Of a stretch of DNA of 64,000 bases, positions 22,841-63,661 are shown piece after piece (within the stretch, counting starts at the first letter, position 1; the number at the start of each line of letters is the position of its first letter). This DNA comes from an uncultured virus (IMG/VR IMGVR_UViG_3300042391_000450). Its lineage: Duplodnaviria > Heunggongvirae > Uroviricota > Caudoviricetes. A program made the position numbers and the translations under genes. The notes below the pieces were generated by a model, which ran no database searches, was not told the origin of the DNA, and saw nothing but the letters and a program-made list of their open reading frames with translations. The stretch lies in IMG/VR virus record IMGVR_UViG_3300042391_000450, one strand, 5' to 3'.

Positions 22841-23407
22841 ATGCCCTCTCATTTGATGATAGATATAGAATCTTTAGACACATCACCCAATTGTGTTATT
22901 CTTACTATTGGTGTAGTAAAGTTTAACCCAAAAGGAACTGGTGTGCTTGATAGATTAGAACTAAAACCTACTATTGAAGATCAAACTGAAGTATATAACA
23001 GAATCATTAATGAAGATACTCTCAGATGGTGGTCGCAACAATCTCCTGAAGCACTAAACGCAGCGTTTAATGAACAGGGTAGAATGTCATTAAAAGAATG
23101 CATGGAAGTGTTATATCATTATTGTTGGAATCAAGATGCTGTGTGGTCAAACGGTGCCCCTTTTGACGTAGTAGTTATGGAAACAGCGTTTAGACAAACT
23201 TTAACTGATAAACCAAATCCAATACCATGGCCTTTCTATACAGTAAGAGACACTAGAACACTATTTGAAATAGCCGGTGTGAAACTAAAAGATAAAAAGT
23301 ATGGTACTAAAACTACGCACAATGCAGTAGAAGACGCCGAACATCAAGCGATTGTAGTACAAGATGCTTATCAAAAGTTAATAGCCGCTGGATTAATGAA
23401 ACCGTGA
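22841..23407 (+). CDS. DEDDh 3'-5' exonuclease
   Basis: MIDIESL, WSNGAPFD, RDTRT, HNAVEDA. Confidence 0.9.
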   Translation: MPSHLMIDIESLDTSPNCVILTIGVVKFNPKGTGVLDRLELKPTIEDQTEVYNRIINEDTLRWWSQQSPEALNAAFNEQGRMSLKECMEVLYHYCWNQDAVWSNGAPFDVVVMETAFRQTLTDKPNPIPWPFYTVRDTRTLFEIAGVKLKDKKYGTKTTHNAVEDAEHQAIVVQDAYQKLIAAGLMKP

Positions 23408-23985
23408 AATTAAACTTTGACGTAGACATTGACGTAGGTAATAGAGATTTGATCTTGGAAAAGATCAAACATATACCTGCTTCTATGCGTAATATTACAC
23501 CTATTAGAAAACACGCTTCTGGTATATATCCATGCAACATACCATATGATCCTATAAATGAAATTGCAGCTATTTCTTATGAAGAGGCAGAAGAAAGGGG
23601 ATACTTTAAGTTAGATATCTTAAATGTTCACGTTTACGAAAAAGTAAAAAGTGAAGAACACTTGATTAGTTTGATGCGTGAACCTGATTGGACTATGCTA
23701 ACTAAGCGAGATATAGTAGAACAACTTATACACTTGAATGGTCAGTATGATACGATTAGAAAGATGCCTGAACCAATAGATAGTATACCACGGTTAGCTA
23801 TGTTCTTAGCAGTAATAAGACCAGCGAAACGTCATTTGATAGGAAAAACTTGGCAAGAAGTAAACAAAACAGTGTGGGACAAAGGCAGTGATGGCTATAG
23901 CTTTAAAAAGTCACATAGTTTGGGTTATGCATGGTTGGTTGCCGTACATATGAATTTAATAAAAGAGGAACAACATGGATCTTAA
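23404..23985 (+). CDS. dnaE: Miniature DNA polymerase III alpha, C-terminal (catalytic Asp) half
   Basis: FDVDIDV, KHASG, FKLDILN, LAVIRP, GYSFKKSHSLGYA are DnaE palm/finger motifs, in 193 aa. Confidence 0.85.
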   Translation: MKLNFDVDIDVGNRDLILEKIKHIPASMRNITPIRKHASGIYPCNIPYDPINEIAAISYEEAEERGYFKLDILNVHVYEKVKSEEHLISLMREPDWTMLTKRDIVEQLIHLNGQYDTIRKMPEPIDSIPRLAMFLAVIRPAKRHLIGKTWQEVNKTVWDKGSDGYSFKKSHSLGYAWLVAVHMNLIKEEQHGS

Positions 23986-24466
23986 ACTTATACCTGAAGA
24001 TAGCGAAGTACTAAGAGAAGTAGCTGAATCGTGGGACTGGGAAAAAGACGGTGATCCCAGTGAATTAGTTAAGGCTATGTCCAAGCTAATGGTTTTACAT
24101 AACGGCATAGGTTTAGCTGCGCCTCAGTGCGGTATTGCTAAACGCATATTTGTTATGGGTAATTCTGATCATTTAGTAGCATGTATCAATCCAGAAATTA
24201 TCTCAGGTAGCGAAAGAGTGAGAGAGCAAGAAGGATGCTTGAGCTTTCCTGATCTTTGGATGTATGTAGAACGATACAAAGATATCTCAGTAGAGTATTA
24301 CAATGTTGCTGGTGAGAAAGTACAACAAGAATTTAATGGTTTAATGGCTAGGGTCTATCAGCATGAGCTGGATCATTTAAATTCTATATGCTTTGATGAT
24401 AGAGTAGGCAAGCTTGTACTAGAACGAGCAAAAGAAAAGAGAAAAAAGATAAGAGAAAAAAGATAA
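23975..24466 (+). CDS. def: Peptide deformylase
   Basis: GIGLAAPQ, EGCLS, QHELDHL. Confidence 0.95.
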   Translation: MDLKLIPEDSEVLREVAESWDWEKDGDPSELVKAMSKLMVLHNGIGLAAPQCGIAKRIFVMGNSDHLVACINPEIISGSERVREQEGCLSFPDLWMYVERYKDISVEYYNVAGEKVQQEFNGLMARVYQHELDHLNSICFDDRVGKLVLERAKEKRKKIREKR

Positions 24467-24469
24467 GAG

Positions 24470-24850
24470 CTAGAAAAGGCGTTTAACTAAAGTAATTGAT
24501 CTTCTTTTTGATCTACGCTTACCTAAATCAGTCATGCTGACAGTAGGTCCGTGTAATATTGCTAAACTTTTGTTATTAAATGTTCGTAAGTATGGCTTGA
24601 ACACGGCCCAATCTTCTTTCAAAAATATATTGATTGGTATAAGTCTATTTGATTCCCACCACCAAATGTCACCTAGTTCTAAAAACTTTTCTTTTAGTCC
24701 TATCTCTACTATTGATCCATAATCGTAAATAGAGGTAACTATATCGTCCCGATTTTGTACTATACCTACATAATCTTGGCTGGCATAATGACACACAGTT
24801 ATAAACGGGTGATTATCACTTAATTTTTTGAAAAAATCTTCTGCACTCAT
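24470..24850 (-). CDS. Hypothetical protein
   Basis: 126-aa ORF with WWWESNR.IPI motif; AATAAATA upstream on minus strand. Confidence 0.75.
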   Translation of the reverse strand: MSAEDFFKKLSDNHPFITVCHYASQDYVGIVQNRDDIVTSIYDYGSIVEIGLKEKFLELGDIWWWESNRLIPINIFLKEDWAVFKPYLRTFNNKSLAILHGPTVSMTDLGKRRSKRRSITLVKRLF

Positions 24851-24933
24851 ATTGTTAATATTTATTCCCGTTTGAAATCAAATCAAATAATTTATTAAGA
24901 CTAAATATATAAAACAAAGGTATTAATGATAAC

Positions 24934-25701
24934 ATGTCCTATGCAACACAAGTTTTTACATACATACAGTCACAGATTGTTATCATTGATACCGGATACT
25001 CAAGTAGGATATATATGCCACAATATTCAAAGCCATTAAGTTTACACAAAGGGGTTGATAATCAATTACGTTTTCAGTTCTTAAATCAAGAACAAAAACC
25101 TGTTAATATCACGGGCAAGTCTATTACTTGTCGTATTATAAACGGTGACGGTACAAAAGTGCTTGTTAGTAAAGCATTAACACTACAATTACCCGTGACC
25201 GGAATAGCAACATTAGACTTAAATGCGGCAGAAATTGAAAACATTTCAGCACAAAAAGCTTATTATAGCTTAGAAATTCCCACTGGTCAATTTGATTTTC
25301 CTGTTTTTATAGATCAAAATGCAGGAGCAAGGGGTGATCTAAATATTGTAAATTCTATATTACCTTCCTTTGTTCCTTCAGAAATAGTTACTATTCCAAG
25401 TGGTCAAGACTTCCCGAACACATATCCAAATACTACGTCTAACTACACATATTATACTAGTGTAGTTAACACCCAAGATAATCCTATCCTTACTGTTCAA
25501 GCACAATATAATGAATACGAAGGTAATGTAGTCATCCAGGGTTCTACAATACCAGATGGTGAATGGTATACTATCATTGAAAGTGATAATTATTCCAATA
25601 TCACTGATACAAAAGGATATACAATCATTGGATTTCATCCATTTGTAAGATTACAATTTAACAGTGATCAGGGCGAAGTAGACAACATCTTGGCAAGGTA
25701 A
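24934..25701 (+). CDS. Putative virion structural protein (Ig/BppU-like beta domains)
   Basis: ACTAAATA at 24900; KG.DN.L.F.F.NQ.QKP..ITG pattern. Confidence 0.6.
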   Translation: MSYATQVFTYIQSQIVIIDTGYSSRIYMPQYSKPLSLHKGVDNQLRFQFLNQEQKPVNITGKSITCRIINGDGTKVLVSKALTLQLPVTGIATLDLNAAEIENISAQKAYYSLEIPTGQFDFPVFIDQNAGARGDLNIVNSILPSFVPSEIVTIPSGQDFPNTYPNTTSNYTYYTSVVNTQDNPILTVQAQYNEYEGNVVIQGSTIPDGEWYTIIESDNYSNITDTKGYTIIGFHPFVRLQFNSDQGEVDNILAR

Positions 25702-25739
25702 TGTCTTGATTTATTATAGAAATCTGCTATAATCAATGA

Positions 25740-26729
25740 ATGTTTGATATATTAACAATTATTCCCGGCAAAAGAAAAACAACAGCAAAGGGCTGGGTTT
25801 CATTTAATTCACCCTGTTGTCATTATCGTGGACATAAGCCCGATAAAAGAATGCGTGGCGGTTTAATCAAAGACAACTACAACTTTACATACAGTTGCTT
25901 TAACTGCCATTTCAAATGTAGATTTGAGTTGGGTAAACCGTTATCTACAAACACTAAATTATTTCTAAAATGGTGCGGCGCTGATGAAAGCTTGATCACA
26001 AAGATCGGTTTAGAAAGTTTACAAAATAAAGATATATTAGACTATATTACACCCGCAGTAAGAAATGTAGCTATCAACTTTAAAGAAAAAGAACTTCCCG
26101 ATAATAGTGAAGTGTTAGATATTAACAATTCAAAACACACTAGATTTATAGACTACTTAAATAATAGAAAAATAAAACACGATGAATATCCTTTTTTAGT
26201 TACTACGGAAGATATCGGACGAAACTCAAACAGAATCATTGTTCCTTTTACATACAAAGGAACGATTGTTGGTAATACAAGTAGATTTTTAGACGATAGA
26301 AAACCAAAGTATCTTAATGATCAACCAACAGGATATTTGTTTGGTTATGACTTTCAAAAACCTGAATGGTCTATTTGCATCGTTGTTGAAGGTATATTTG
26401 ATGCACTAAGTATAGATGGTTGTGCTTTGGGTACCAGTACAATCAGTTTAGAACAACAAGAATTGTTAAGAAGGTTAAACAGAACTATTATAGTAGTTCC
26501 TGATCAAGACAAAACAGGATTAGAGTTATGTGATCTAGCTATGGAGCTAGGATATCAAATAAGCTTACCTGAATGGGGACTGAACAATGAAGGTAAACCA
26601 ATTAAAGATGTAAACGAAGCTGTAGTAAAATATGGTAAATTACCTGTGTTGCTAAGTATTATACAATCAGCAACTATGAGCAAAATTAAAATAGAAATGA
26701 GGAAACGAAAACTTGTTAAAAGAATTTAA
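25740..26729 (+). CDS. DNA primase (gp61/DnaG-like)
   Basis: Zn finger (PCC...CFNC), PKYLN, VVEGIFDA, PDQD..G, KDVNE TOPRIM motifs. Confidence 0.9.
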   Translation: MFDILTIIPGKRKTTAKGWVSFNSPCCHYRGHKPDKRMRGGLIKDNYNFTYSCFNCHFKCRFELGKPLSTNTKLFLKWCGADESLITKIGLESLQNKDILDYITPAVRNVAINFKEKELPDNSEVLDINNSKHTRFIDYLNNRKIKHDEYPFLVTTEDIGRNSNRIIVPFTYKGTIVGNTSRFLDDRKPKYLNDQPTGYLFGYDFQKPEWSICIVVEGIFDALSIDGCALGTSTISLEQQELLRRLNRTIIVVPDQDKTGLELCDLAMELGYQISLPEWGLNNEGKPIKDVNEAVVKYGKLPVLLSIIQSATMSKIKIEMRKRKLVKRI

Positions 26730-28131
26730 CCCCGAAGTACAAACGCTATTTTTGCGTATGATGATCACTAACCCTGAGTTATATACTAGGGTAATGAACA
26801 TCATGAACCCACTAAACTTTGACAGATCAGTTAGGGCGGCAGCAGAGTTTATAGTAGAACATTCACAAAAATACAATGTGTTGCCTGATCCTACGCAAAT
26901 CAAAGCTACTACTGGTATAGAAATTGAACTAATCCCTGAACTTGACTCAGCAGGGCATACCGAGTTTTTCTTAACTGAGTTTGAACACTTTACAAAAAGA
27001 CAAGAACTAGAACGAGCAATCTTAAAAGCAGCAGAGTTATTAGAAAAGGGTGAATATGATCCAGTTGAAAAACTGATCAAAGATGCGGTACAAATTTCTT
27101 TAATGCGTGATTATGGTACAGATTACTTTGCTGATCCTAAAGAACGATTAAACAGATACTTTAATCAAGGCGGTCAAGTAAGCACAGGGTGGCCTCAACT
27201 AGACAAAGTTATGTATGGTGGTATGTCTAGGGGCGAACTAAACATCTTTGCAGGTGGTTCAGGATCAGGTAAGTCACTTGTAATGATGAACTTGGCTGTG
27301 AACTTTTTAGCACAAGGATTAAGCGGTGTTTATATTACACTTGAATTGTCTGAAGAGCTAACGGCTTTAAGAACTGATGCTATGTTAACTAGCATGAGCA
27401 CTAAAGATATTCGTAAAGACTTAGACACAGTAGAATTAAAAGTAAAAATGGCTGCTAAAAAGTCAGGTAAGTATCGTGTTAAAGGTCTTCCTGCACAAAG
27501 CAACGTAAACGTAATCAGAAGTTATATTAAAGAAGTACAAATACAAACAGGTATGCTAATAGACTTTGTAATGATTGATTACTTGGATCTAGTAATGCCT
27601 GTTAGTGTTAAAGTAAATCCTAATGATCAGTTTATCAAAGACAAGTATGTTAGTGAAGAATTAAGAAACTTGTCTAAAGAGTTAGGTGTTTTAATGGTTA
27701 CAGCATCACAGCTAAACAGATCGGCTGTAGAAGAAATTGAATTTGATCATAGTCATATTGCAGGTGGTATTTCTAAGATTAACACTGCTGACTATGTGTT
27801 TGGTATCTTTACTAGCAGATCAATGAAAGAGCGAGGCAAGTATCAAATTCAGTGTATGAAATCACGTAGTTCTACTGGTGTTGGTCAAAAGATTGACTTA
27901 GAATATAACATTGATACTATGAGAATTACAGATGAAGGCGGTGATGAAAATGCTGGGTATCGTCAATCCGCTACAGATATTATGAACAAAATTAAAACTG
28001 TAAGTACAGTATCTCAAAATGAAACTATTGATGCTAACACTGGTGAAATTCAACAATCTGAGAAAAAAGTAGTAGCAGATGTTCAAGGTTCTAAGCTAAG
28101 AAACATGCTAAACTCCTTAAAGAATAATTAA
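26713..28131 (+). CDS. Replicative helicase (gp41/DnaB-like)
   Basis: STGW..LD....GG, GGSGSGKS, YITLELSE, IDYLDL, TASQLNR, KSR. Confidence 0.93.
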   Translation: MLKEFNPEVQTLFLRMMITNPELYTRVMNIMNPLNFDRSVRAAAEFIVEHSQKYNVLPDPTQIKATTGIEIELIPELDSAGHTEFFLTEFEHFTKRQELERAILKAAELLEKGEYDPVEKLIKDAVQISLMRDYGTDYFADPKERLNRYFNQGGQVSTGWPQLDKVMYGGMSRGELNIFAGGSGSGKSLVMMNLAVNFLAQGLSGVYITLELSEELTALRTDAMLTSMSTKDIRKDLDTVELKVKMAAKKSGKYRVKGLPAQSNVNVIRSYIKEVQIQTGMLIDFVMIDYLDLVMPVSVKVNPNDQFIKDKYVSEELRNLSKELGVLMVTASQLNRSAVEEIEFDHSHIAGGISKINTADYVFGIFTSRSMKERGKYQIQCMKSRSSTGVGQKIDLEYNIDTMRITDEGGDENAGYRQSATDIMNKIKTVSTVSQNETIDANTGEIQQSEKKVVADVQGSKLRNMLNSLKNN

Positions 28132-28161
28132 TCTAAGATAAATATAATAAAGGTTATTGCT

Positions 28162-28410
28162 ATGCAGAAAAAAACGCGCAGTCTCTTAGAAGAACTAGAA
28201 AGTATAGGCAACAATAAGGATGTTAATCTTCTTATTGAAAACCGTGCTAACAACGTTATTTCAAGTGCTATCAATCTGTTAGAATTGATGAAAAAGCATT
28301 ATTCCTCTGAAAAAGCTGAGCTACTAGAAAGAAAACTGCTAAGTGCTATTAAGGGTCGAGACCAAGAAAGATTTTCTAAGTCTTTAAGAAAAAAAGATGA
28401 AGACAATTAA
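28162..28410 (+). CDS. Hypothetical late protein
   Basis: GATAAATA at 28137; helical 82 aa. Confidence 0.75.
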   Translation: MQKKTRSLLEELESIGNNKDVNLLIENRANNVISSAINLLELMKKHYSSEKAELLERKLLSAIKGRDQERFSKSLRKKDEDN

Positions 28411-28434
28411 AATTTAATAAGGAAGTAGATAATA

Positions 28435-30288
28435 GTGTTTATATCTGAAGGCGGAAACATCTTTAAACAACAAGACGGTACTGAGCTAACTAGACGTATA
28501 AATCAGAATGAAGTTGCGCCTACTATTAATTGGTTAGAAAGTATTACTGGATTAGATTTAACTAAAGAAAAAGCTAAAGATGGTTTACCCGCTAAATGGT
28601 TGGGTTCTACTGGTAGAAAATCTACTAGCGGTGATCTAGACTTAGCAGTAAATGCGAATGAAGTAAGTAAAGCAGAGCTAGAAAGCAAACTAAAATCATG
28701 GGCTACGCAAAATAATCTTGATCCAAAAGACTTTGTAAAAAAGTCTGGTATATCTGTACACTTTGCAACACCAATAGAAGGCAATTTTGAAAAAGGGTTT
28801 GTTCAAACAGATTTTATGTTTTTAAACAATCTTGAATGGGAAACATGGTTGCTTAGCGGAGGTATGAGAAGCCCTAGCGAATACAAAGGTGTATTTAGAG
28901 AAGTAGCATTAAACAGCGTAGCTAAAGGCACGATCACTAGTGAACATCCTCAAGGATTGCGTTTGAGTGGCAAAGGCGTAGTTGACAGAGCTACCGGAGA
29001 ACTAGTAACACTAGATCCAGAAGTAGCTACTAAACTGTTGTTTGGTAAAGATGGTACACTTGATGATATGAGTTCAGTAGAAAACATCTATAAGAAACTA
29101 AAAAATGATCCCAACAAACAACAAAAATTAAAAGACTTTGAAGAATATGCAGCAAGAAGTGGCATAACACCTCCCAAGTTTAACGATACTGCTAACGAAA
29201 GCGCATACGATATCATAACAAAGTTTAGAAATTTAGTTGTAGAAAATTCTTTTATTACTGAAGAAGCTAAAGGACCTAGAATACCTCATCCTGAAGATGC
29301 TATTTTTGACGGTGGCGACAGTGCAAAACAATATTTAAATGCACTCAAACAAGCTATTAGTAGTCCAGAATCTGGTAGTATTAAATGGGACGGCGGGATA
29401 GCATTATACTTTGGTAACTTACCTGACGGTAGATTTGTTGTTACTGACAAGTACATGCCAAACAAAGGTGTGTATCCTACTAGCCCCGAAGAATGGGTTG
29501 AATATGATCAACAGCGCGGCGCAAATAGAAACGACTTATACGAAAAGATTGATTTATTATGGCCCGGACTAAAGCAAGCTGTATCTGGAACTACTGGTTT
29601 ATTTAAAAGTGATTTAATGGCTATTAATCCCAAACCACAAAACGGATACTTTGTGTTTAAACCGGTTACTGTAGAGTATCGCATACCAGTTGAGTCTGAT
29701 CTTGGTAAACAACTTCAAGGAAAAGTAGGCTTCTTAATCGTTCACGAGTTTGATAACAAACCATGGCGCGGTGAGCCAGCAATGAATAAATCTAATGTAG
29801 CTTTGATACCTGCTTCTGCCGGAGTTACATTCAATATTAAGCCTCCTGCTAAACTAATTAATGATGCTGAAAGCGTGTTATCAACAAACAGTAAAGTTAT
29901 AGACGACTTTTTAAGCGGACTTAGTAGCGTTGCGCGTGAAGCATTAAAGAAATACATGAATCATAAAATAACCAAGCAAACTAACGATAAGTTAGTACCA
30001 TGGTTATCTCAAAATATCAGTAAATCACAGTATAACTTCTTAGTAGGAACTGACGGTACTGGTTATTTACAGCAAAACGCAGAAGGATTGAATGCTCTTG
30101 TCAAAGTGTGGAATGCAATATACAAACTAAAAGTTAATGTATCCAATCAACTTGAAAACCAAGTTCAAGGCTTTGAACAGTCGTCAGGTGGGCAAAAAGG
30201 CGGAGAAGGATTCGTATTTCCTACTGATTCAGGTTTAGTTAAAATAGTAGACAGACAGCGTTTTGGAGCTGCCCATTTTAACAAATAA
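28435..30288 (+). CDS. Pol-beta-like nucleotidyltransferase fused to a ligase-like (KxDG) domain
   Basis: N-half LGSTG...SGDLDLAV...VQTDFM; C-half HPED...IKWDG...GEGFV...KIVDR. Confidence 0.7.
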   Translation: MFISEGGNIFKQQDGTELTRRINQNEVAPTINWLESITGLDLTKEKAKDGLPAKWLGSTGRKSTSGDLDLAVNANEVSKAELESKLKSWATQNNLDPKDFVKKSGISVHFATPIEGNFEKGFVQTDFMFLNNLEWETWLLSGGMRSPSEYKGVFREVALNSVAKGTITSEHPQGLRLSGKGVVDRATGELVTLDPEVATKLLFGKDGTLDDMSSVENIYKKLKNDPNKQQKLKDFEEYAARSGITPPKFNDTANESAYDIITKFRNLVVENSFITEEAKGPRIPHPEDAIFDGGDSAKQYLNALKQAISSPESGSIKWDGGIALYFGNLPDGRFVVTDKYMPNKGVYPTSPEEWVEYDQQRGANRNDLYEKIDLLWPGLKQAVSGTTGLFKSDLMAINPKPQNGYFVFKPVTVEYRIPVESDLGKQLQGKVGFLIVHEFDNKPWRGEPAMNKSNVALIPASAGVTFNIKPPAKLINDAESVLSTNSKVIDDFLSGLSSVAREALKKYMNHKITKQTNDKLVPWLSQNISKSQYNFLVGTDGTGYLQQNAEGLNALVKVWNAIYKLKVNVSNQLENQVQGFEQSSGGQKGGEGFVFPTDSGLVKIVDRQRFGAAHFNK

Positions 30289-30373
30289 TATATCCTAAAC
30301 CAGCATTTTTTTCTATTTGGCATAAATATTTGTATGGAGCAGTAGGCTTCAAAACATTTAAAGGATATTTAAA

Positions 30374-30763
30374 ATGGCACAATTTACAAGAGTCAATGGT
30401 GACTTTAAACCAGTTCTACACTTAGACAGCGCAGCATACACTAACACTGGTGTTAACACTGTAACTTCAGCAGCTTCTGTTCAGCCACAGGGCCCAAAGC
30501 TTGAGTTTGCAACTATTACCTTTACCGGTACCGGTACTACTGGTGCACAGATTCTTGCTGCTGTGAATACTATTCAGCAATTAGCAACAATTTACATGTA
30601 TGAGTTCACTACTGATACTAACGACACTTTAGCAGTAGCTATGTACCCAATTGGTGCATGGGGCGATGTAACTGCTACTGCTGCTGGTTCACTTGATGCT
30701 GAATTGACTGCTGCATGCGGTGAAGCTGTATCTATTGCTGCGACTGCAACATTCACAAACTAA
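30374..30763 (+). CDS. Small virion protein (probably abundant)
   Basis: CATAAATA at 30321, AAGGA SD, Ala/Thr-rich, own terminator. Confidence 0.75.
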   Translation: MAQFTRVNGDFKPVLHLDSAAYTNTGVNTVTSAASVQPQGPKLEFATITFTGTGTTGAQILAAVNTIQQLATIYMYEFTTDTNDTLAVAMYPIGAWGDVTATAAGSLDAELTAACGEAVSIAATATFTN

Positions 30764-30789
30764 TTTATTAGTTAATCGCAACACAAAAG

Positions 30790-30816
30790 ACCCTGAGTTT
30801 TTCTCAGGGTTTTTTT
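30790..30816 (+). terminator. Rho-independent terminator
   Basis: ACCCTGAG-TTTTT-CTCAGGGT plus T-tract. Confidence 0.88.
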
Positions 30817-30834
30817 ATGCCAATAAATATATCT

Positions 30835-31272
30835 ATGTCACATAGAATTAGATGTTATACATTATTCAATATCACACGAACCGGCACGACTAATCGCACT
30901 AAGCCAAGTGATGATGTAGCAGCTTGGTTGCAATCTAGAAATACACAATGTAATTTTGATACAATACTACAGATTATATCATTGCGATCACAACCTGAAC
31001 TGTTAAAAGATCCTCAAAAGTTAGAAATAAACTTAAGTGAATTTAATAAGTTTGGATTATTATACTTGTCTAAAGAAAAGGTATATTGCTGGTCTTTTGA
31101 ATTTGAAGTACATCATTCAAGCGTTTTTGATAATGGCATAGATGAATTGGGTTCGTTATACACAGATTGTGATAATGTTCCTATGATAAAAGACAGTTTA
31201 GAAATAAGTAACTTACCTACATTTTTAAACATTAGTCCCGAATTAAAGAATATACATTTTGAGATTATATGA
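30835..31272 (+). CDS. Hypothetical late protein
   Basis: AATAAATA-N5-ATG 30835 (start revised); TLFNIT.TG...RN.Q.NF.T..Q.ISLRSQP. Confidence 0.75.
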   Translation: MSHRIRCYTLFNITRTGTTNRTKPSDDVAAWLQSRNTQCNFDTILQIISLRSQPELLKDPQKLEINLSEFNKFGLLYLSKEKVYCWSFEFEVHHSSVFDNGIDELGSLYTDCDNVPMIKDSLEISNLPTFLNISPELKNIHFEII

Positions 31273-31769: not shown

Positions 31770-31789
31770 ATCAACATTGGAACAATATT

Positions 31790-32808: not shown

Positions 32809-32851
32809 CCTATTTTGTTGTGTCTTTCTTATTTCTTTTGTATAATACACT

Positions 32852-33867: not shown

Positions 33868-33918
33868 TATGTATTAAAGATAAATAAGATATAACACTAT
33901 TATGGAAAGTTATATCTT

Positions 33919-35625: not shown

Positions 35626-35647
35626 ATAAAATAATAGGAAAATAAAA

Positions 35648-49310: not shown

Positions 49311-49315
49311 TAAAA

Positions 49316-51386: not shown

Positions 51387-51411
51387 TAACACATAATGAC
51401 TAAATAATATT

Positions 51412-52221: not shown

Positions 52222-52243
52222 TTATTTTTTAATAAATAGTTAC

Positions 52244-52726: not shown

Positions 52727-52779
52727 ATTTTAAAAGATAAAGATAAATAATAGATATTATACATATTTAAGGATTAACC

Positions 52780-53400: not shown

Positions 53401-53410
53401 GGAATCTATT

Positions 53411-56392
53411 ATGAGTATGAAAGATTTATTAAACAAAATGACTGAACTTCAAGGCACTACTAAAGAAGAGAAAGTTACTACTACTGGTAAAAGAGTTCTA
53501 AACGAAAGTGCTGAACGCCCGTATGTATGTGTTCATGCTAAAAAAGGCAAGTATGAAGTTAAGGCTAACTCTAGTTATGAAGCTGTTAAAAAAGCTGCTG
53601 ATAAATGGAAGTTGAAATCAACTGCTGGTATTGATGCTTATGTGGCTGATAAACCCATTTCTGCTGCAAGTTTAGAAGAAAACACGAAGCCATCTTTAAA
53701 AAGTATGTTTAACGCTTTACTTGCTGAAGCTGAACAAGTTACTATTCAACCAGCTCAACAAAACACTCAAGTAATCAAGCAAGGTAATAAAACTCTTGGT
53801 ACAGTTACTAATCCTAATCTAGCTAATCAAATTAAGCAAAGCATTGGTAAAGGTGAAATGAGTTTAGCTGGTGATGAATTAAATGAAGTTGATGATGATT
53901 ATGACGGTGATGATTACGATCATGATGACGGCAGTGATCAATATGCTACAGAATTACACGGTCTTCATCTTGGTGATGTAGTAAAAGCTAACTATAACGG
54001 TAAAACTGTAATAGGTAAAATTAGTGAATTACACCCAACTTATCTTGAAGTGGAATTAGAATTAACTGGAAGAAATGCTGGTAAAACAGTTATAGTTGAT
54101 GTTAGAGAAACTGAATATGTAGATAATCTTAATGAAGCCAAGCTAACCGAAAAAGCAAAAAGTAAGTCACAGCAACAAGCAGCTGGTGCAGCATTAGCAG
54201 CTAAGCGCGGTGATGCTCCAAAAAGCACACTAAAAGGTGCATCAAAAGAAATGGCAAAAATGCCCGCTAAAGAGTTAGAAAAGTTTGCGAAAACTAAACA
54301 CAAAGGCTTACCTGACAAAAAAGAAAAAACTAACGAAGAAAAGGGTTCTCCTTTAATGTGGAAAGATATAAAGACAAAAAAAACAACTCCTGCATTATGT
54401 ACTCAACACAACAAACCCTTATTCAAGAAAGGGGAAGGTGCGAATGCTAAGTATGCTTGTGCAGATTGTCCTAAACCTGAAAAGAATAAAACTGATGAAG
54501 CAGCTATGCCAACCAATGACAGCGACTTTGGTGCAGGATTAGGCGCTGGAAGAAACAGCAAGACTTTAGAAGCTAAAAAAGCCAAGCCAGATTTTCTAGA
54601 CTTAGACAAAGATGGCAACAAGAAAGAATCAATGAAAAAGGCAGCAGCCGACAAACAAAAGGTATCAACAATGAAAAAGACAAATGAAGCTAAAGCTAAG
54701 CCAGACTTTTTAGACTTAGATAAAGATGGTGACAAAAAAGAACCAATGAAAAAAGCTGCGGCGGACAAGAAAACAGGTTCTACTGATAAAAAGAGCAGTG
54801 CAGGGTTAACCGCCGCGCAGAAAAAGTTACCGGCTGGTTTACAAAAAGCTGTTGCGAAAAAGAAAACAGTTAAAGAAGGCACAAATCCAACCGAGTCAGC
54901 AAGATTACTTGGTAAAGCACATGCTATGGCAAATGATACTTTCAGTTGTAAGTATGAAGAAGGTTCACAAGAAGCACAAGCTTATCTTGATGGATACAAA
55001 TCTGGTTTAGACGAATGCTATGGATCAGGCGGCATGGGAATGCAACAAGATATCGGTATGATGCCTGGTATGGTATCACAAGATTCTATGATGGATACTC
55101 CTTCACCAAGAGGCGGTAGTGAGTTTGCGTTTGGTGGATTTGATGATGTGAGTGATGACGATATGATGGCGTTTGAGTCATGGGATCGTGAACTAAATGC
55201 TTTATTGAATGAAGCAGTAACACCTAAATTCCAAGTTCGTTATTTACCTAACAACCGAGACACGTATAAAATAGAGAAAGGATTCGCGAGTAAAAAAGAA
55301 GCTCAGGATTGGATAAAGGGAGAAAATCTACGAGATAGGGCAGAAGATATTAGTATTGAAACTAGTACGAGCAAAGAAGTTAATGAAGGCAAAATTAAAG
55401 ACATTGATATTGACATGACACACATGACTGATACTAAGTTTAAAGAAAAGTATGGTAAATCAAAAGCTGACATGAAAAAAGACTTGTCTGGTTCTACTGA
55501 CAAAAAACCAGTAAAAGAAGGTATGACTGTTTCCGTTTCTAAAGGACAACAAGGATCACCTGACTCTGTTACTATTTCAGCACAAGATAGTGAAGCCGAT
55601 CAGTTACTAAGTCTGATTAAGCAAGCTGGCTTAGGATTGTTCGGCGGTGAAGACACTGCGCGAACTAGCGCATATGGTGCTCCGGTACAATCTGATGCAG
55701 GATCGCAAAGTGTATATCCTGACTCAAATGTAGATACTGGAGATCATGATGGCATGATGGCACTGATGCAGAAAGTAGCAGGCAATGATTACGAGGATGA
55801 AGAATCTCAAGATGCATCATGTGACGTATGTGGATCAGGTGATTGTGGATGCAATGATTCAGACAGTAAAGCATTGGTAGTTGGTGAAGAACAAGGCTAC
55901 GATGACAAAGAAGATGAATCATTGGGAATGCGTACAGGTAAAGAATCTGGTAAAGAACAATCTATGAAAGATCGTAGAGATGATTCTTATGGAAAATTTG
56001 GAAAAAGAACAGACGAAGATGAAACTGAAGATCAAATGGAGTTTGAAGTATCCGAAGCAAATGCTCCTGATTCCGGTGAAGCTGAAACTACTGCTGACGA
56101 AAACGCAGAAGCTAAAGAAGATCAAGCACTAGCTGGTGCAATGTCTGACAACGAAGAAGAAATTGACGAAAGCGAAGAAGAATTAACTGAGTGGGCTAAT
56201 GACGCTGGATATCAAGGTTCTGAAAACATAAAAGACAATACGTTTGAACAAGACATTGAGTTTATGACTAGAGTTATTTCAGGTGGATTGAACGGACAAA
56301 AACAAGATCAAACTACTTTACCGCATACTAAAGTTAAAGTAGCAGAGTCTAGTTTGCTTGATGATTGGAAGAAACTAAGCGGAATAAGATAA
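53411..56392 (+). CDS. Modular prohead core/internal protein with many x-x-E sites
   Basis: AAGGA SD before ATG 53411; DUF3008-like block, two KPDFLDLDKDG repeats, Zn-ribbon, acidic tail, ends KKLSGIR. Confidence 0.75.
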   Translation: MSMKDLLNKMTELQGTTKEEKVTTTGKRVLNESAERPYVCVHAKKGKYEVKANSSYEAVKKAADKWKLKSTAGIDAYVADKPISAASLEENTKPSLKSMFNALLAEAEQVTIQPAQQNTQVIKQGNKTLGTVTNPNLANQIKQSIGKGEMSLAGDELNEVDDDYDGDDYDHDDGSDQYATELHGLHLGDVVKANYNGKTVIGKISELHPTYLEVELELTGRNAGKTVIVDVRETEYVDNLNEAKLTEKAKSKSQQQAAGAALAAKRGDAPKSTLKGASKEMAKMPAKELEKFAKTKHKGLPDKKEKTNEEKGSPLMWKDIKTKKTTPALCTQHNKPLFKKGEGANAKYACADCPKPEKNKTDEAAMPTNDSDFGAGLGAGRNSKTLEAKKAKPDFLDLDKDGNKKESMKKAAADKQKVSTMKKTNEAKAKPDFLDLDKDGDKKEPMKKAAADKKTGSTDKKSSAGLTAAQKKLPAGLQKAVAKKKTVKEGTNPTESARLLGKAHAMANDTFSCKYEEGSQEAQAYLDGYKSGLDECYGSGGMGMQQDIGMMPGMVSQDSMMDTPSPRGGSEFAFGGFDDVSDDDMMAFESWDRELNALLNEAVTPKFQVRYLPNNRDTYKIEKGFASKKEAQDWIKGENLRDRAEDISIETSTSKEVNEGKIKDIDIDMTHMTDTKFKEKYGKSKADMKKDLSGSTDKKPVKEGMTVSVSKGQQGSPDSVTISAQDSEADQLLSLIKQAGLGLFGGEDTARTSAYGAPVQSDAGSQSVYPDSNVDTGDHDGMMALMQKVAGNDYEDEESQDASCDVCGSGDCGCNDSDSKALVVGEEQGYDDKEDESLGMRTGKESGKEQSMKDRRDDSYGKFGKRTDEDETEDQMEFEVSEANAPDSGEAETTADENAEAKEDQALAGAMSDNEEEIDESEEELTEWANDAGYQGSENIKDNTFEQDIEFMTRVISGGLNGQKQDQTTLPHTKVKVAESSLLDDWKKLSGIR

Positions 56393-56425
56393 TAATAATA
56401 ATAATGCTCAACTGAACGTTTCTTT

Positions 56426-56452
56426 AATACCCGGTTCGCCGGGTATTTTTTT
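56426..56452 (+). terminator. Rho-independent terminator
   Basis: AATACCCGG-TTCG-CCGGGTATT plus T-tract. Confidence 0.92.
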
Positions 56453-56499
56453 GTTTGTAACAATGATAAATACAGTAATATATTATAGAGGATATACTT

Positions 56500-58290
<1,791 letters not shown>

Positions 58291-58301
58291 AGGAAATATA
58301 A

Positions 58302-58922
58302 ATGATTACATTATCTTTACTACAACAAATAGCTCCTAAAACTAAAAAAGAAGTTTTAGAAACATACGTTGCCCCACTCAATGCTGTGTGTAAAAAATAT
58401 GGTATTTTAGATAACCATAAAAGAACAGCCGCATTTTTAGCGCAAGTTGCACACGAGTCAGGTGGTTTTAATTTTACTAAAGAAAACTTAAATTATAATG
58501 CTAAAGCATTACAATCAGTATTTAAAAAGTATTATTCAACAGAAAAAGACGCATTAGTACATGAAAGAAAGCCAGAACAAATCGCTAACAAAGTATACGC
58601 AAGCAGAATGGGAAATGGTGATGAAAAATCAGGAGACGGTTGGACTTACAGAGGTCGCGGTTTAATTCAGTTAACTGGTAAAGAAAATTATACTAAGTTT
58701 GCTGAATCTATAAAAAAGCCAATAACAGAAGCAGTTAGTTATCTAGAAACCGCAGAAGGTGCTGTAGCTAGTGCTGCTTGGTTTTGGGATAAGAATAAAT
58801 TAAATGATTTATGTGATAAAGACGATTTTGTTACACTAACAAAAAGAATCAATGGTGGAACAAACGGGTTAGAAGATAGAAAGCATCACTACGAGTTAGC
58901 ATTAAAAGCATTAAAAGGATAA
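58302..58922 (+). CDS. Glycoside hydrolase family 19 endolysin
   Basis: FLAQ..HESG.F...ENLNY, YRGRGLIQLTG..NY, SA.WFW, RINGG.NGL.DR. Confidence 0.93.
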   Translation: MITLSLLQQIAPKTKKEVLETYVAPLNAVCKKYGILDNHKRTAAFLAQVAHESGGFNFTKENLNYNAKALQSVFKKYYSTEKDALVHERKPEQIANKVYASRMGNGDEKSGDGWTYRGRGLIQLTGKENYTKFAESIKKPITEAVSYLETAEGAVASAAWFWDKNKLNDLCDKDDFVTLTKRINGGTNGLEDRKHHYELALKALKG

Positions 58923-58923
58923 T

Positions 58924-61542
58924 ATGTCTCAACCAAATTGGACTACACCTGCAGGCAGTATAGGATCATATCCAGCACTAGTATTATTATCTGTGCAGTT
59001 ACTGGCTCAGCCGGTAGCACCTGCTGCAACCGTAACTTATACATTGATAAGCGGATCATTACCTGAGGGTTTGAGTTTATCCAATATTGGTTTAATATCA
59101 GGAACTCCTATAATAGTTATTAGCGATACGACTTATACATTTGTGGTTAGAGTTACAGACAATTTAGGAAACATAAGAGACAGAACATTTTCTATGATAA
59201 TTTCAGGAGTAGCATCTCCTGAATTTACTACCCCTACTGGTAGTATATTAAATACTCCAGACAGTACATGGGTACAATTACCTATTGAATATAGTAATCC
59301 ATTAAGTAACAATTTAGTTGCTATCAGAATAATACAAGGACAACTACCGCCAGGTTTAGAAATAAACACTAACGGACTGATACGAGGTTATGCTGAGCCA
59401 CCAATTAATAATGTTAACTTGGGTGCGGTAAATACATCTATAACTTCTACAAATTCAAATATTATAACTTGTTTAAGTACTACTGGGTTTAGAATAGGAA
59501 GACCTATAATATTTTCAGGTACACCGTTTGGCGGTATAGTAGCATCGCAAACTTATTACATTAAAACTTTTGATGAATCTTCTTTTACTATATCAAATAT
59601 TGTTGGAGGATCAACCGTTGTATTAAGTAATGACGTAGGATACATGACTGCTAGCCTACCTAACATATCAATAGGACAACCTACTACACGCACATATTCA
59701 TTTACTGTAAAACTAGAAAGCTTATTAGGCAGTGACATAGAATCCTATAACATTACCGTAGTGAATCAAAATGCTCCCGAAGCAGAAGGTGGACCTAAAC
59801 CTGCGAATTCCAGAGAGCCTACTATATACAACACTAGACCCCCTACATTTAATATAAATGAATCTACCCCTTACTATGGTTACTATGTATTACCACCAAA
59901 CGAACAAGGTAATACCTATCTTCCTACAGAAGATGCTTATATAGGTAGTATTACCAGTGATAATATATTTTCGTTTAAGGTAATAGGTCATGACTTTGAT
60001 AGCAATGTATTAACTTATACATTTGCAGACTTACCATCAGGACTAACAGCAAATAGTGCTACTGGCTGGATCACAGGCAATCCCGTAATAGCTAATAATT
60101 CTATAAGTGAATTTTCATTTAGTGTAGCGGTAGCTAAAGCTGGTAACCCAGCTATCACTACTCCTTCTTATAACTTTTCATATAGACTAGTTAACAATTT
60201 GATAGGTGATATATTCTGGATAACTCCTTCTGATTTAGGGCAAATAGAAAATAGTACAGTTAGTGTTTTAAGTGTAGTGGCAGAATCAGATGTAAACTTA
60301 GAATACAGATTAGTAAGCGGAACTCTTCCACCTAATTTGGTTTTGTTGTCTAACGGAGAAATTACTGGTACAGTAGCATATCAACCTACAGATACATTAT
60401 TACCAGCAGGCGCTATTACTGACTTTACATTTGAGATAGAAGCGTTTTCTCCTCTATATTCAACGGTTGTTAACTCTACACGAACTTTTACTTTATCAGT
60501 GGTGCAGCAATATACACAGCCAACTGACACACTATACATTAAGTGTACACCAAGTATACAAGATAGAAATTTACTAAGAACTTTATTGAATGATACTACA
60601 CTAATACCTGACAGTTATTTATATAGACCAACAGATTTAAATTTTGGTAAAGCAACTAGTGTTATATATGCTCATGCTTATGGAATATATGCTAATGATT
60701 TAGACGCATATGTAGCTGCGGTTACTAAAAATCATTATTGGAGAAATATTACATTAGGTGAATTAAATACCGCAGTAGCAAAGAATGATGCAGGCGAAGT
60801 TATATATGAAGTTGTATATAGTTCAGTAATTGATAACTTGATAAACCCTGAAGGTGTTAGTGTCAGTAAAGAAATAGTTTGGCCTAGACTTATAGATTTA
60901 AACTTAGGTCCATGGTATACAAGTGTTACTGATATTTATACTAGTTACATAAATGCACCAGTTGAGGGACAGTCTTGGCTAACACAAAATAATGAATATA
61001 TTACCTCTGAGGATTTGTTCATTTTAGAAACTGAATCAGGTCAGCCCGGTTTTTATACTAGTTTAACTCCCGGATATGCAACCGTTTTATATCCTAACAG
61101 TTTACCTAATATGAGAGAACAAGTGGGGGAAGAATTAGGGCAAGAATATAATTTTAGACTGTATCCAAGATGGATGACTTCACAACAAGCGAATGGTAGC
61201 ACATTAGGATTTACACCAGCTTGGGTTATTGCTTATTGTAAGCCAGGAACAACAACATTAAATGGTCAAACTGTAACTTACGGTGAGTATATCAAGTATC
61301 AAATAGAAAATAATTGGCAAGATCCTGTAACAAATTATAAATTTCAACTTAACGAAATTAACTTTAAGATAGATAGATTTACTGTAGATAAGAGTTTGAC
61401 ATATAACTATGATAATAATTTAAGTCCGGCTACGTGGATTGGATTACCAAGTGCGACTCCAGTACCAAATCCAGTGAATAGTAATGATTTTTATACACTA
61501 TTTCCTAGAAAAACTATTTTACCCGATGAAACTCAGTACTAA
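58924..61542 (+). CDS. Baseplate wedge-like protein with Ig-like (He_PIG) repeats
   Basis: Repeated W.TP.G..G / SG.LP.GL.L...G.I.G units; YEVVY, YPNS..NMR, P.WM.S.Q, IDRF. Confidence 0.75.
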   Translation: MSQPNWTTPAGSIGSYPALVLLSVQLLAQPVAPAATVTYTLISGSLPEGLSLSNIGLISGTPIIVISDTTYTFVVRVTDNLGNIRDRTFSMIISGVASPEFTTPTGSILNTPDSTWVQLPIEYSNPLSNNLVAIRIIQGQLPPGLEINTNGLIRGYAEPPINNVNLGAVNTSITSTNSNIITCLSTTGFRIGRPIIFSGTPFGGIVASQTYYIKTFDESSFTISNIVGGSTVVLSNDVGYMTASLPNISIGQPTTRTYSFTVKLESLLGSDIESYNITVVNQNAPEAEGGPKPANSREPTIYNTRPPTFNINESTPYYGYYVLPPNEQGNTYLPTEDAYIGSITSDNIFSFKVIGHDFDSNVLTYTFADLPSGLTANSATGWITGNPVIANNSISEFSFSVAVAKAGNPAITTPSYNFSYRLVNNLIGDIFWITPSDLGQIENSTVSVLSVVAESDVNLEYRLVSGTLPPNLVLLSNGEITGTVAYQPTDTLLPAGAITDFTFEIEAFSPLYSTVVNSTRTFTLSVVQQYTQPTDTLYIKCTPSIQDRNLLRTLLNDTTLIPDSYLYRPTDLNFGKATSVIYAHAYGIYANDLDAYVAAVTKNHYWRNITLGELNTAVAKNDAGEVIYEVVYSSVIDNLINPEGVSVSKEIVWPRLIDLNLGPWYTSVTDIYTSYINAPVEGQSWLTQNNEYITSEDLFILETESGQPGFYTSLTPGYATVLYPNSLPNMREQVGEELGQEYNFRLYPRWMTSQQANGSTLGFTPAWVIAYCKPGTTTLNGQTVTYGEYIKYQIENNWQDPVTNYKFQLNEINFKIDRFTVDKSLTYNYDNNLSPATWIGLPSATPVPNPVNSNDFYTLFPRKTILPDETQY

Positions 61543-61572
61543 ATACTGTATAAATGAAATTAGGAATTAAGA

Positions 61573-62868
61573 ATGAGCACAATTAATACCAATGGAATAA
61601 ATGTAAACTATCCTATACCGGGAGAGAATAATTCTACTCAAGGTTTTAGAGATAACTTTGCATCTATCAAAACGAATTTAAATACTGCCGGAACAGAAAT
61701 AACTGATCTTCAGAATAAAGTAGTTCTTAAAGCTGCGTTGAATGGTTCTACAATTAACAACGACATGGCTAATACTCTTATTAGCAATGCTTCTACTAGA
61801 TCGTTTAGAGCTACTACTTATAATTTAGGTAATGCGTTATCAGGCACTGTTTTAGTTAACGTAGCACAAGCAGATGTACAATATGGTAATGTAGCAGGAA
61901 ATGTAACATTACAGTTTGGTTCTTGGGCTCCCACTAACACAGAAAGTGCTATTACTTTGCGTTTAGGCATTAGTAATAGTAGTGCAGTTATAACATTTCC
62001 TAGTCAAGTAGTAGCATCAAATAATAATTTTGGTGGAACTATTTTAGAAAACTATGCAAACATAGCAAACGTAATTACAATTACAGCGCCGTACGATGTT
62101 GAGCAGTTAGAATTTAAACTAAGAACATTAGATTGCGGTAATACTATTACTATAGAACCTATGAATAGACCCTACCAGTCTACTCAAATTATAAAAAGAA
62201 CTCCTCCAAGTACCGGCCAACAAGGTGACAAAGTAGGTACTGTTTGTATTGATACCGGTACAAGTCAGTTAGTTGTTACTGGTGCAAATACTGATCCTTA
62301 TTTTACAACGTCAAGCACAACAACTCTGTATCCAGGATTATCAGTAACCTTTACAGGAACTAGTTTAGAAGCAAACGTTGTAGTAGGTAATACTTATTAT
62401 ATTAGAAACGTAGTAAACAGTACACGATTTACTGTATCTTCTACCGTAAGCGGATCAAATATTGCTATAGGTGCTAACGCTACAGGAACAGCAATGCTGT
62501 TAAATGCCGTACAGTATATGTATGTTGCTGTAGCAAATTACTCTGCAAATGCATTCAATAGAAATATAGCTAATACCACCTCTCCGAATATCATAACTGT
62601 AAGTGGATCAACAGCTAACTTAGAAGTAAATAATCCTATTATTTTCGCAGGTAATGCTTCGGGTAATACTGCTAACATAGAACTAGATACAGTATATTAC
62701 ATTAATTCAGTGTCAGGTAGTAATGTAACTATTAGTAAGACTAGATACAACGGTGTAGCAGGACCTGAATATACTAATATTACTACAGTTAGTTCTAATG
62801 TTGATATTGATTATACGGTATACGACGGACCAGATATTTTTAGAAGAACAACGTTGAATCCATTCTAA
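61573..62868 (+). CDS. Virion structural (baseplate/fibre) protein
   Basis: ACTAAATA at 61538; IN.NYP..G.NNSTQGFRDNF..IK motif; G..GD..G; YYI modules. Confidence 0.75.
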   Translation: MSTINTNGINVNYPIPGENNSTQGFRDNFASIKTNLNTAGTEITDLQNKVVLKAALNGSTINNDMANTLISNASTRSFRATTYNLGNALSGTVLVNVAQADVQYGNVAGNVTLQFGSWAPTNTESAITLRLGISNSSAVITFPSQVVASNNNFGGTILENYANIANVITITAPYDVEQLEFKLRTLDCGNTITIEPMNRPYQSTQIIKRTPPSTGQQGDKVGTVCIDTGTSQLVVTGANTDPYFTTSSTTTLYPGLSVTFTGTSLEANVVVGNTYYIRNVVNSTRFTVSSTVSGSNIAIGANATGTAMLLNAVQYMYVAVANYSANAFNRNIANTTSPNIITVSGSTANLEVNNPIIFAGNASGNTANIELDTVYYINSVSGSNVTISKTRYNGVAGPEYTNITTVSSNVDIDYTVYDGPDIFRRTTLNPF

Positions 62869-62870
62869 TT

Positions 62871-63110
62871 ATGGAACATCCATTTATAGTATCACTTACA
62901 GATAAAAATTTAGAAGAGCTCCAGAATACGTTATCCGATTTGTACGGTAAATTAAATTTTGCATACAGATCGGGTAATGGAGCATTGATCAGTCAAATAC
63001 ATATGGTTATAGAAAGTTATCGGACTGAATATAATAAAAGAATGGACGAAATGATCAAAAAGCAAAACATTAACGCTCAAATTAACATTGAAAAAGGTAG
63101 TAAGAGTTAA
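62871..63110 (+). CDS. Hypothetical protein
   Basis: MEHPF...L...L.EL...L..KL helical, 79 aa. Confidence 0.75.
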   Translation: MEHPFIVSLTDKNLEELQNTLSDLYGKLNFAYRSGNGALISQIHMVIESYRTEYNKRMDEMIKKQNINAQINIEKGSKS

Positions 63111-63154
63111 CCTTTTTCATTGACATAAACTTACAATTAATATATCATCAATCA

Positions 63155-63661
63155 ATGATTATTGATAACTTCGGTCAGCACATCTTTAACGAAAAAGACA
63201 TATGTAATTTGTACATGACTGACCCTACTCGGCAGTTAAAATCATTACTTGTAAAAGAAGTAATTAACTTTGATTCAGAACTAGATTTACAAAAACTACC
63301 AGAACTTCTTGAATATCAAACCAGTGACCAAACTATTGAAGAATTTGACAACATAAGATCAACCGAATGGTTCATGCCTGAAGAATATAAAAATTTTGAT
63401 ATTGCTAAATGGATTTTAGAGCAATGCAAAACTGATGAAGAATTACAACGCGCAGGAGAAGAACTGATTATGTTTCAAGAACGAGACATGTTTATTCTTC
63501 TTCAATACTTAAAATATTTAGTAGACACTATGCGTAAACATAACATAGTATGGGGTGTAGGTAGAGGTAGTAGTATTGCTAGTTTTGTTTTATATCTAAT
63601 AGGGATACATAGGATAAATAGTTTATACTATCAAATATCAATTAATGAGTTTTTAAAATAG
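63155..63661 (+). CDS. dnaE: Miniature DNA polymerase III alpha, N-terminal (GRGS) half
   Basis: R..EEL......L.YLVD......WGVGRGSSIASFVLYLIGIH.I...Y....EFL; TTGACA-N17-TATCAT-N6-ATG. Confidence 0.85.
   Translation: MIIDNFGQHIFNEKDICNLYMTDPTRQLKSLLVKEVINFDSELDLQKLPELLEYQTSDQTIEEFDNIRSTEWFMPEEYKNFDIAKWILEQCKTDEELQRAGEELIMFQERDMFILLQYLKYLVDTMRKHNIVWGVGRGSSIASFVLYLIGIHRINSLYYQISINEFLK

What the first reader, a model, noticed from the sequence alone, without database searches (positions are those of the whole stretch)
23404..63661. Split, miniaturised DnaE: two complementary halves 40 kb apart, no intein
Seen: 63155-63661 (168 aa) ends ...GVGRGSSIASFVLYLIGIHRINSLYYQISINEFLK*, and 23404-23985 (193 aa) begins MKLNFDVDIDV... 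then KHASG, KLDILN, IRP, GYSFKKSH. Established: bacterial DnaE reads GRGS...GIT..DP....L.FERFLNPER.SMPDFDVDF, with catalytic D401/D403/D555 in E. coli. The break therefore falls exactly between FL(N/K) and the DxD motif, and all three Asp equivalents are kept. The total is 361 aa versus about 1160; PHP, most of thumb and fingers, clamp-binding and OB regions are missing, as are the Arg residues of FERF/PER. No intein or intron flanks either half, and the gene order is reversed. The C-half is coupled to a DEDDh exonuclease. Inference: a heterodimeric minimal C-family polymerase or nucleotidyltransferase, probably not the processive replicase (primer, repair, terminal-transferase or signalling role).
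Basis: partly seen in the sequence, partly recalled or inferred. Interest (0 to 1): 0.82.

Follow-up and report, generated by a model that had tools for sequence, protein, structure and literature searches.

The report
Two-gene miniature phage DNA polymerase III
A giant phage makes a stripped-down bacterial-type DNA polymerase core from two small genes 39 kb apart, alongside its normal T4-type copying enzyme; the arrangement is real and widespread but was already described from sequence in 2021, and what the enzyme does appears still untested.

Summary
Observation confirmed; not new. Both ORFs are intact, under purifying selection (dN/dS 0.06-0.27) and map on E. coli DnaE: the 168-aa half to residues ~279-393, the 193-aa half to 400-~780 with the thumb body and most fingers deleted. 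Iyer et al. 2021 (PMC7824862) described this split minimal Pol III alpha in group 2.2 jumbo phages, and the scan has found it before on other DNA. The 267-kb genome has a separate family B polymerase. Added here: the halves co-occur in 92 of 96 cultured-phage records (2 more recovered by profile), fold as a confident heterodimer (0.90 vs best control 0.00), occur once as a natural single-chain fusion, and occur in a 141-kb phage. The pair keeps DnaE's metal, primer, template, base-stacking and ribonucleotide-excluding residues, which argues for a templated, distributive DNA polymerase and against the terminal-transferase, signalling or RNA-priming readings. R390 is replaced by a near-invariant Glu; R396 and R709/R710 have no aligned counterpart. 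The exonuclease link is clade-limited (family absent from 4 of 8 complete genomes). No activity measurement was found in 9 literature searches.

The parts
63155..63661 (+). N-half (168 aa): residues ~70-168 = first part of the DnaE palm (E. coli ~279-393) with the nucleotide-binding R137-G138-S139 (R362/G363/S364); E165 replaces R390; residues 1-70 are a small beta-rich module without a structural match that contacts the C-half in the model
   Evidence: (phrog_11127)
23404..23985 (+). C-half (193 aa): D6/D8 (D401/D403), D71 (D555), K69 (K553), R139-P140 (R639/P640), Y165/F167/H171/Y175 (Y754/F756/H760/Y764); H37 probably H511; thumb body, most of the index finger and everything after ~E. coli 780 deleted
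   Evidence: (phrog_11778)
22841..23407 (+). Rv2179c-like DEDDh 3'-5' exonuclease (188 aa), stop overlaps the C-half start; optional neighbour, not an obligate subunit
   Evidence: (PF16473, E 1.2e-34)
18583..21825 (+). Conserved upstream block: UvsW-type helicase and three conserved unnamed genes (167, 199, 236 aa; the last with a C2H2 finger); none matches DnaE domains
24470..24850 (-). Conserved convergent 126-aa gene of unknown function that follows the C-half in most relatives
   Evidence: (phrog_11637)
25740..28131 (+). DnaG-type primase and DnaB-like helicase, conserved downstream of the C-half
63669..64000 (+). Conserved 112-aa gene after the N-half; GroES-like genes and the RFC clamp-loader follow just outside the window (window-extended 64973-65902); family B polymerase at window-extended 80583-83303

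Best explanation
The two proteins assemble non-covalently into one DnaE-type catalytic core (palm plus middle finger) that acts as a template-directed, dNTP-specific, distributive DNA polymerase accessory to the phage's T4-type family B replisome, adding short stretches at primer-template junctions (extending primase-made primers, filling gaps, or repair and recombination synthesis). Shown here: homology, break point, conservation, co-occurrence, selection, separate family B enzyme. Modelled: the heterodimer. Inferred: activity, template dependence, low processivity, role.
For: Residues that E. coli structures place at the incoming dNTP, primer and template (bioRxiv 10.64898/2026.06.29.735100, passages; PMC8485763, passages) are kept across 89 diverse C-halves: D6 89/89, D8 89/89, D71 89/89, K69 89/89, R139 87/89, P140 89/89, H171 88/89, H37 88/89, and R137/G138/S139 70/70 in N-halves. 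Complex model: score 0.90, best of 3 controls 0.00; mark reached by 116 of 157 solved complexes and 2 of 215 mismatched pairs; runs agree in at least 96% of contacts, partner pLDDT at least 89. C-half residues 1-70 are poorly folded alone (block pLDDT 44-64). One natural 375-aa protein fuses N-half to C-half in DnaE order. Co-occurrence: 92 of 96 cultured-phage records have two matching places, 2 of 3 tested singles have the N-half by profile; 4 of 4 complete IMG/VR records. dN/dS 0.056-0.118 (C-half, 8 pairs) and 0.063-0.27 (N-half, 29 pairs). Each half sits in a conserved replication block. Family B polymerase in this genome and 8 of 8 relatives.
Against: No activity has been measured. R390, within 4 A of dGTP and worth 27-fold in E. 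coli, is Glu in 69 of 70 N-halves and Asp in the other; R396, R709, R710, K714, K715 have no reliably aligned counterpart; compensation by K168 (N757 in E. coli; K/R in 88 of 89) and K142 (80 of 89) is only inferred. With the thumb body gone, DNA binding may be too weak without a partner, and no clamp-binding motif was recognised at the C-half ends. The complex score may come from likeness to solved DnaE. The H37 = H511 match ranks third in an ungapped whole-protein scan and rests on collinearity; MAFFT placed that segment elsewhere.
Confidence: 0.6

Rival explanations
1. A specialised templated polymerase with a relaxed pocket: lesion bypass, mutagenic synthesis, or use of a modified nucleotide that the family B enzyme handles badly.
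For: Loss of most of the index finger, which closes on the dNTP and enforces selection in E. coli; invariant charge reversal at R390; no obligate proofreading partner; Y165 (Y754) is less conserved, 62 of 89.
Against: Steric gate and the F-K-K-S-H loop are tightly conserved; no link to base-modification genes was seen in the neighbourhoods; low Y165 count is partly alignment jitter next to an indel.
Confidence: 0.14
2. Template-independent nucleotidyltransferase (terminal transferase, signal-nucleotide synthase) or RNA-primer synthase.
For: Pol-beta-like fold and loss of thumb and fingers; many minimal Pol-beta enzymes are untemplated (own knowledge).
Against: Template-contacting R639/P640 equivalents are 87/89 and 89/89 conserved, and the ribonucleotide-excluding His is 88/89; a DnaG-type primase is encoded 1.8 kb away; both genes lie in replication blocks.
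Confidence: 0.1
3. Catalytic core of a processive second replicase whose other parts are supplied by unrecognised phage subunits (the conserved 236-, 199-, 167-, 126- or 112-aa neighbours) and the clamp.
For: These neighbours travel with the halves in distant phages; this genome record is only 76% complete.
Against: No PHP, finger or HhH_6 match in this genome and none over cut-off for finger or HhH_6 in 8 of 8 complete relatives; profiles of eight neighbour genes do not match E. coli DnaE (best E 0.067).
Confidence: 0.09
4. Catalytically dead or nearly dead DNA-end-binding scaffold or decoy.
For: Several basic phosphate-binding residues are lost.
Against: All three metal ligands are invariant in 89 of 89 sequences that are only 28-56% identical to this one; purifying selection.
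Confidence: 0.06
5. Decayed fragments of a captured host dnaE, or halves rejoined by protein or RNA splicing.
For: Two partial genes far apart.
Against: dN/dS far below 1; 51 of 57 N-halves end one residue after E-F-[LIMV]; thousands of relatives of the same size; no intein or known intron; six residues between the ends are missing, unlike a clean splice junction.
Confidence: 0.02

Closest known systems
Split minimal DNA polymerase III alpha of group 2.2 jumbo phages (Iyer et al. 2021, PMC7824862; section 3.4.1 read whole, passages of 3.5 and Fig. 3 legend; supplement not readable)
   Same: [quoted passage not shown]
   Different: Only the genome is new. In the passages read the paper gives no residue map, complex model, fused form or sub-200-kb example; it proposes cooperation with the family B enzyme in synthesis of one strand or repair.
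Bacterial DnaE / PolC (E. coli Pol III alpha; PDB 2hnh, 5fku, 2hpi, 5lew, 3f2b)
   Same: Palm fold, GS motif, three catalytic Asp, K553, R639/P640, Y754/F756/H760.
   Different: 361 vs 1160 aa; two chains; PHP, thumb body, most index finger, ring and little fingers, clamp motif and OB absent; R390 to Glu; R396 absent.
Intein-split DnaE of cyanobacteria (own knowledge) and intein-free split full-length phage DnaEs (earlier scan notes e1-5466535, e1-6458002, unchecked)
   Same: Active site assembled from two gene products.
   Different: Those are full-size replicases; this one has no intein, is a third of the size and coexists with a family B replicase.
Bacillus subtilis DnaE extending RNA primers before hand-off to PolC (recalled, not checked here)
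   Same: Possible functional analogy: an accessory family C enzyme doing short synthesis beside the main replicase.
   Different: B. subtilis DnaE is full length and clamp-binding; the role is unproven for the phage enzyme.

Membership tests
Split minimal Pol III alpha of group 2.2 jumbo phages (Iyer 2021) | Two separate, distantly located genes for the NTP-binding and the Mg/template-binding parts | tested here: met
   39,170 bp apart; mapped on DnaE
Split minimal Pol III alpha of group 2.2 jumbo phages (Iyer 2021) | Accompanies a T4-type family B polymerase, DnaB, gp32-type SSB, UvsW, RFC loader | tested here: met
   PF00136 match; DnaB, UvsW; loader homologue annotated in relatives; SSB judged by eye only
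Split minimal Pol III alpha of group 2.2 jumbo phages (Iyer 2021) | No other Pol III alpha domains in the genome | tested here: inconclusive
   None found, but the record is 76% complete; finger and HhH_6 not over cut-off in 8 of 8 complete relatives
Split minimal Pol III alpha of group 2.2 jumbo phages (Iyer 2021) | Orthology to the proteins of group 2.2 phages | tested here: met
   37-48% identity over 94-99% of the C-half and 39-50% for the N-half match in Atu_ph07, GAP32, PA5oct and others; same synteny
Family C DNA polymerase (DnaE/PolC) | Pol-beta-like palm with GS motif and three catalytic Asp | tested here: met
Family C DNA polymerase (DnaE/PolC) | Steric-gate His and base-stacking Tyr loop | tested here: met
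   H171 88/89, F167 74/89, Y165 62/89
Replicative DnaE (full architecture) | PHP, full thumb and fingers, clamp-binding and OB regions in one chain | tested here: not met
   168 + 193 aa only
Family C DNA polymerase (DnaE/PolC) | Template-directed dNTP incorporation | not testable with these tools
   no assay available; none found in print
Intein-split DnaE | IntN fused to the N-half and IntC to the C-half | tested here: not met
   N-half stops at the residue equivalent to N393; C-half starts 5 residues before the first Asp; no Pfam intein hit

The most novel reading that the evidence does not exclude
These phages run a two-polymerase fork: the 361-residue heterodimer is a dedicated primer-extension enzyme that takes over the primase's RNA primer, adds a short DNA stretch and hands it to the family B replicase (a Pol-alpha-like step done by the smallest family C polymerase), with a rewired triphosphate site (R390 to Glu, N757 to Lys). 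Putting the halves in two separate operons would then act as a timing switch.
Probability: 0.22. Interest if true: 0.7.

Novelty: new member of a known kind. Interest (0 to 1): 0.3.

Why it matters
The family is described but apparently untested. If active, it is a natural minimal version of the bacterial replicase core (a third of the size), useful for asking which parts of family C polymerases catalysis needs and why a phage with a family B replicase keeps a second polymerase so strictly. The residue map, the complex model, the natural fusion P0282 and culturable phages on laboratory hosts make the question directly testable. This locus itself adds only another member.

Tried and rejected
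Single-sequence searches of the C-half against Pfam and PDB gave nothing useful, nor did a close-relative profile or Foldseek (Taq DnaE only at rank 19, E 1.4); a diverse profile and VIA-align were needed. A word-index search for longer forms of the C-half found none among 237 candidates (weak evidence), yet the HMM search found one fusion among the 150 of 516 hits listed. No relative of that fusion was recovered from viral or metagenome contigs, so it is a singleton on one 2,415-base contig and a gene-calling artefact is not excluded. Exonuclease as obligate subunit: rejected. Neighbour genes as the missing DnaE domains: no match; my by-eye idea that the 167-aa gene is Hint-like found no support. 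Clamp-binding motif at the ends of the halves: the N-half's terminal E-F-L is the ancestral F391/L392 palm helix and touches the C-half in the model; C-half ends are variable. Expression: no RNA holder listed; the PA5oct spreadsheet supplement has no per-gene phage expression sheet (its PDF was not read). Distance matrices of the two halves correlate (Mantel r 0.92, 13 genomes), but shared descent alone gives that, so it is not counted as co-evolution. Searches for papers naming R390/R396 or finger boundaries returned none. The 5 surplus N-half records (101 vs 96; four Clostridium phages are in the tally) were not examined. Slickus01 was not tested for the N-half. The Iyer supplement could not be read and may already hold the alignments and neighbourhoods reported here.
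Full report
1. Observation. The N-half matches Pfam DNA_pol3_alpha (residues 89-167, E 1.2e-8). Each half has its own PHROG labelled DNA polymerase (phrog_11127, phrog_11778). The window belongs to a 266,967-base phage record, 76% complete, with T4-like tail and replication genes and a 906-aa family B polymerase outside the window.

2. Map on DnaE. A 70-sequence N-half profile aligns residues 98-167 without gaps to E. coli DnaE 323-392; its model superposes on DnaE/PolC over residues ~70-168 (E. coli 279-393; best Z 12.3, rmsd 2.1 A, 95 residues). Residues 1-70 are not covered by the structural matches, although phmmer stretches a weak alignment over them (E 0.0023), so they may be new or an eroded PHP end. 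An 89-sequence C-half profile aligns positions 54-140 to 538-641 and 151-180 to 739-769 (E 5.5e-6); the DxDxD motif scores best at 400-407. The C-half model's top seven matches are all DnaE/PolC (best Z 8.4, rmsd 7.3 A, 169 residues; next unrelated Z 3.9), with a high rmsd expected for half an enzyme folded alone. So the pair covers the palm (271-432 and 511-560 in the preprint's numbering) and the finger segments flanking the active site, and lacks PHP, the thumb body, about 90 residues of the index finger and everything beyond ~780.

3. Active site. Roles are from passages of bioRxiv 10.64898/2026.06.29.735100 and PMC8485763. Kept: R362/G363/S364 (70/70 each); D401, D403, D555, K553 and P640 (89/89), R639 (87/89), H760 (88/89), F756 (74/89), Y754 (62/89). 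H37 (88/89) probably is the primer-contacting H511, by collinearity only (third-best in an ungapped scan; MAFFT placed it elsewhere). Changed: R390 is Glu in 69 of 70; R396 lies in the six residues lost at the break; R709, R710, K714, K715 have no reliable counterpart. N757 is Lys/Arg in 88 of 89 and K142 is conserved in 80 of 89; they may replace the lost charges (inference). Conservation of template-, primer- and sugar-contacting residues points to templated dNTP addition; loss of thumb body, clamp motif and OB points to short products (inference).

4. Do the halves belong together? Complex model: score 0.90, best of 3 controls 0.00; this mark was reached by 116 of 157 solved complexes and 2 of 215 mismatched pairs; runs agree in at least 96% of contacts; partner pLDDT at least 89. 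The pass may reflect likeness to solved DnaE, though the interface also uses N-half residues 1-74. Alone, C-half residues 1-70 are low-confidence (block means 44-64). Among the 150 listed of 516 hits at 50%-identity level, one 375-aa protein carries both halves in one chain; it is a singleton nested among split forms. Used as a query it hits 96 cultured-phage records at 188 places, that is 92 with two places given the four single-place rows listed. Of those four I tested three: the N-half is present in Slicko01 and, broken, in an unverified record, and absent from a 109.5-kb unverified record that is probably partial. In IMG/VR, 9 of 13 large records with an N-half have the C-half, including 4 of 4 complete ones. 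Relatives number in the thousands at 90% clustering (7,268 and at least 7,992). The break is fixed: 51 of 57 N-halves end one residue after E-F-[LIMV].

5. Selection and missing parts. dN/dS is 0.056-0.118 for 8 non-identical C-half pairs, 0.11 and 0.27 for two divergent N-half pairs with the window, and 0.063-0.268 for 27 further N-half pairs (kept from 276 by >80% identity and >5 synonymous changes), like the neighbouring exonuclease and deformylase (0.10-0.17). No PHP, finger or HhH_6 domain is found in this record. In 8 complete relatives finger and HhH_6 have no match over cut-off; three of the four weak finger matches are the C-half itself. All 8 have a family B polymerase. Profiles of eight conserved neighbour genes do not match DnaE.

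6. Neighbourhood. The C-half sits between a UvsW block and primase-DnaB; the N-half sits a few genes before the clamp loader, here and in Paride, GAP32 and Atu_ph07. The exonuclease is near the C-half in 20 of 42 loci, all at 64% identity or more to this one and many redundant, near the N-half in 10 of 83 loci, and its family is absent from 4 of 8 complete genomes. It may assist where present but is not a required subunit.

7. What is known. Iyer et al. 2021 (PMC7824862; section 3.4.1 read whole, passages of 3.2, 3.5 and the Fig. [quoted passage not shown] This is the same system. Five searches aimed at the phage enzyme (listings only, apart from the papers named) showed no experimental follow-up; the library lacks most subscription journals. 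PMC7318152 (passages and spreadsheet index) gave no gene-level timing. The scan noted the same family on other DNA (e1-5824206, e1-5379017, e1-5697564).

8. Verdict. A real, conserved, selected two-gene minimal family C core; a new member of a known kind. Most likely an accessory templated, distributive DNA polymerase (0.6). Rivals: relaxed or specialised polymerase (0.14), untemplated transferase or primer synthase (0.10), core of a larger replicase (0.09), inactive scaffold (0.06), decay or splicing (0.02). Interest 0.3: the arrangement is in print, but its activity is an open and easily testable question, and the R390-to-Glu reversal is unexplained.

Noticed in passing
P0282 (375 aa, one 2,415-base contig): Natural single-chain fusion of N-half and C-half in DnaE order with a short linker (hhalign 99.7% to the N-half profile); its C-part nests among stand-alone C-halves (local support 0.95), suggesting secondary re-fusion. 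Singleton.
   Followed up: partly
L130, L133 (Alishewanella phage Slicko01, OQ508956.1, 141 kb): Both halves and a family B polymerase occur in a phage below jumbo size, about 11 kb apart.
   Followed up: yes
P0241-P0390: In 18 of 93 near-full-length C-halves the first catalytic Asp is residue 2, directly after the start Met, so the free N-terminus lies beside the active site; a peptide deformylase gene follows the C-half here (23975-24466) but not in most relatives.
   Followed up: no
L079, L081, L084, L085, L093, L105-L108, L110: In 10 of 83 N-half loci the Rv2179c-like exonuclease lies 1.6-3.1 kb downstream of the N-half instead of next to the C-half.
   Followed up: partly
window 24470-24850 (-): Convergent 126-aa gene with an invariant W-W-W motif follows the C-half in nearly all relatives; no Pfam or PDB match. 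Candidate partner.
   Followed up: partly
window 20053-21825: Three conserved unnamed genes between UvsW and the C-half; the 236-aa one has a C2H2 finger, the 199-aa one resembles by eye a clamp-loader small subunit (recalled, no hit).
   Followed up: partly
window 21828-22839: Four small tandem genes, three ending in L-R-W-E, inserted before the exonuclease; similar arrays are in earlier scan note e1-5984227.
   Followed up: no
window 28435-30288: 617-aa protein with DUF6267; earlier scan note e1-5365842 reads it as a nucleotidyltransferase-ligase fusion.
   Followed up: no
window 2194-3468 (-): 424-aa protein with a signal-like N-terminus and a long Asn/Thr-rich low-complexity tract.
   Followed up: no
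G000: The 266,967-base record is classed as provirus and 76% complete; no terminal repeat was found.
   Followed up: no
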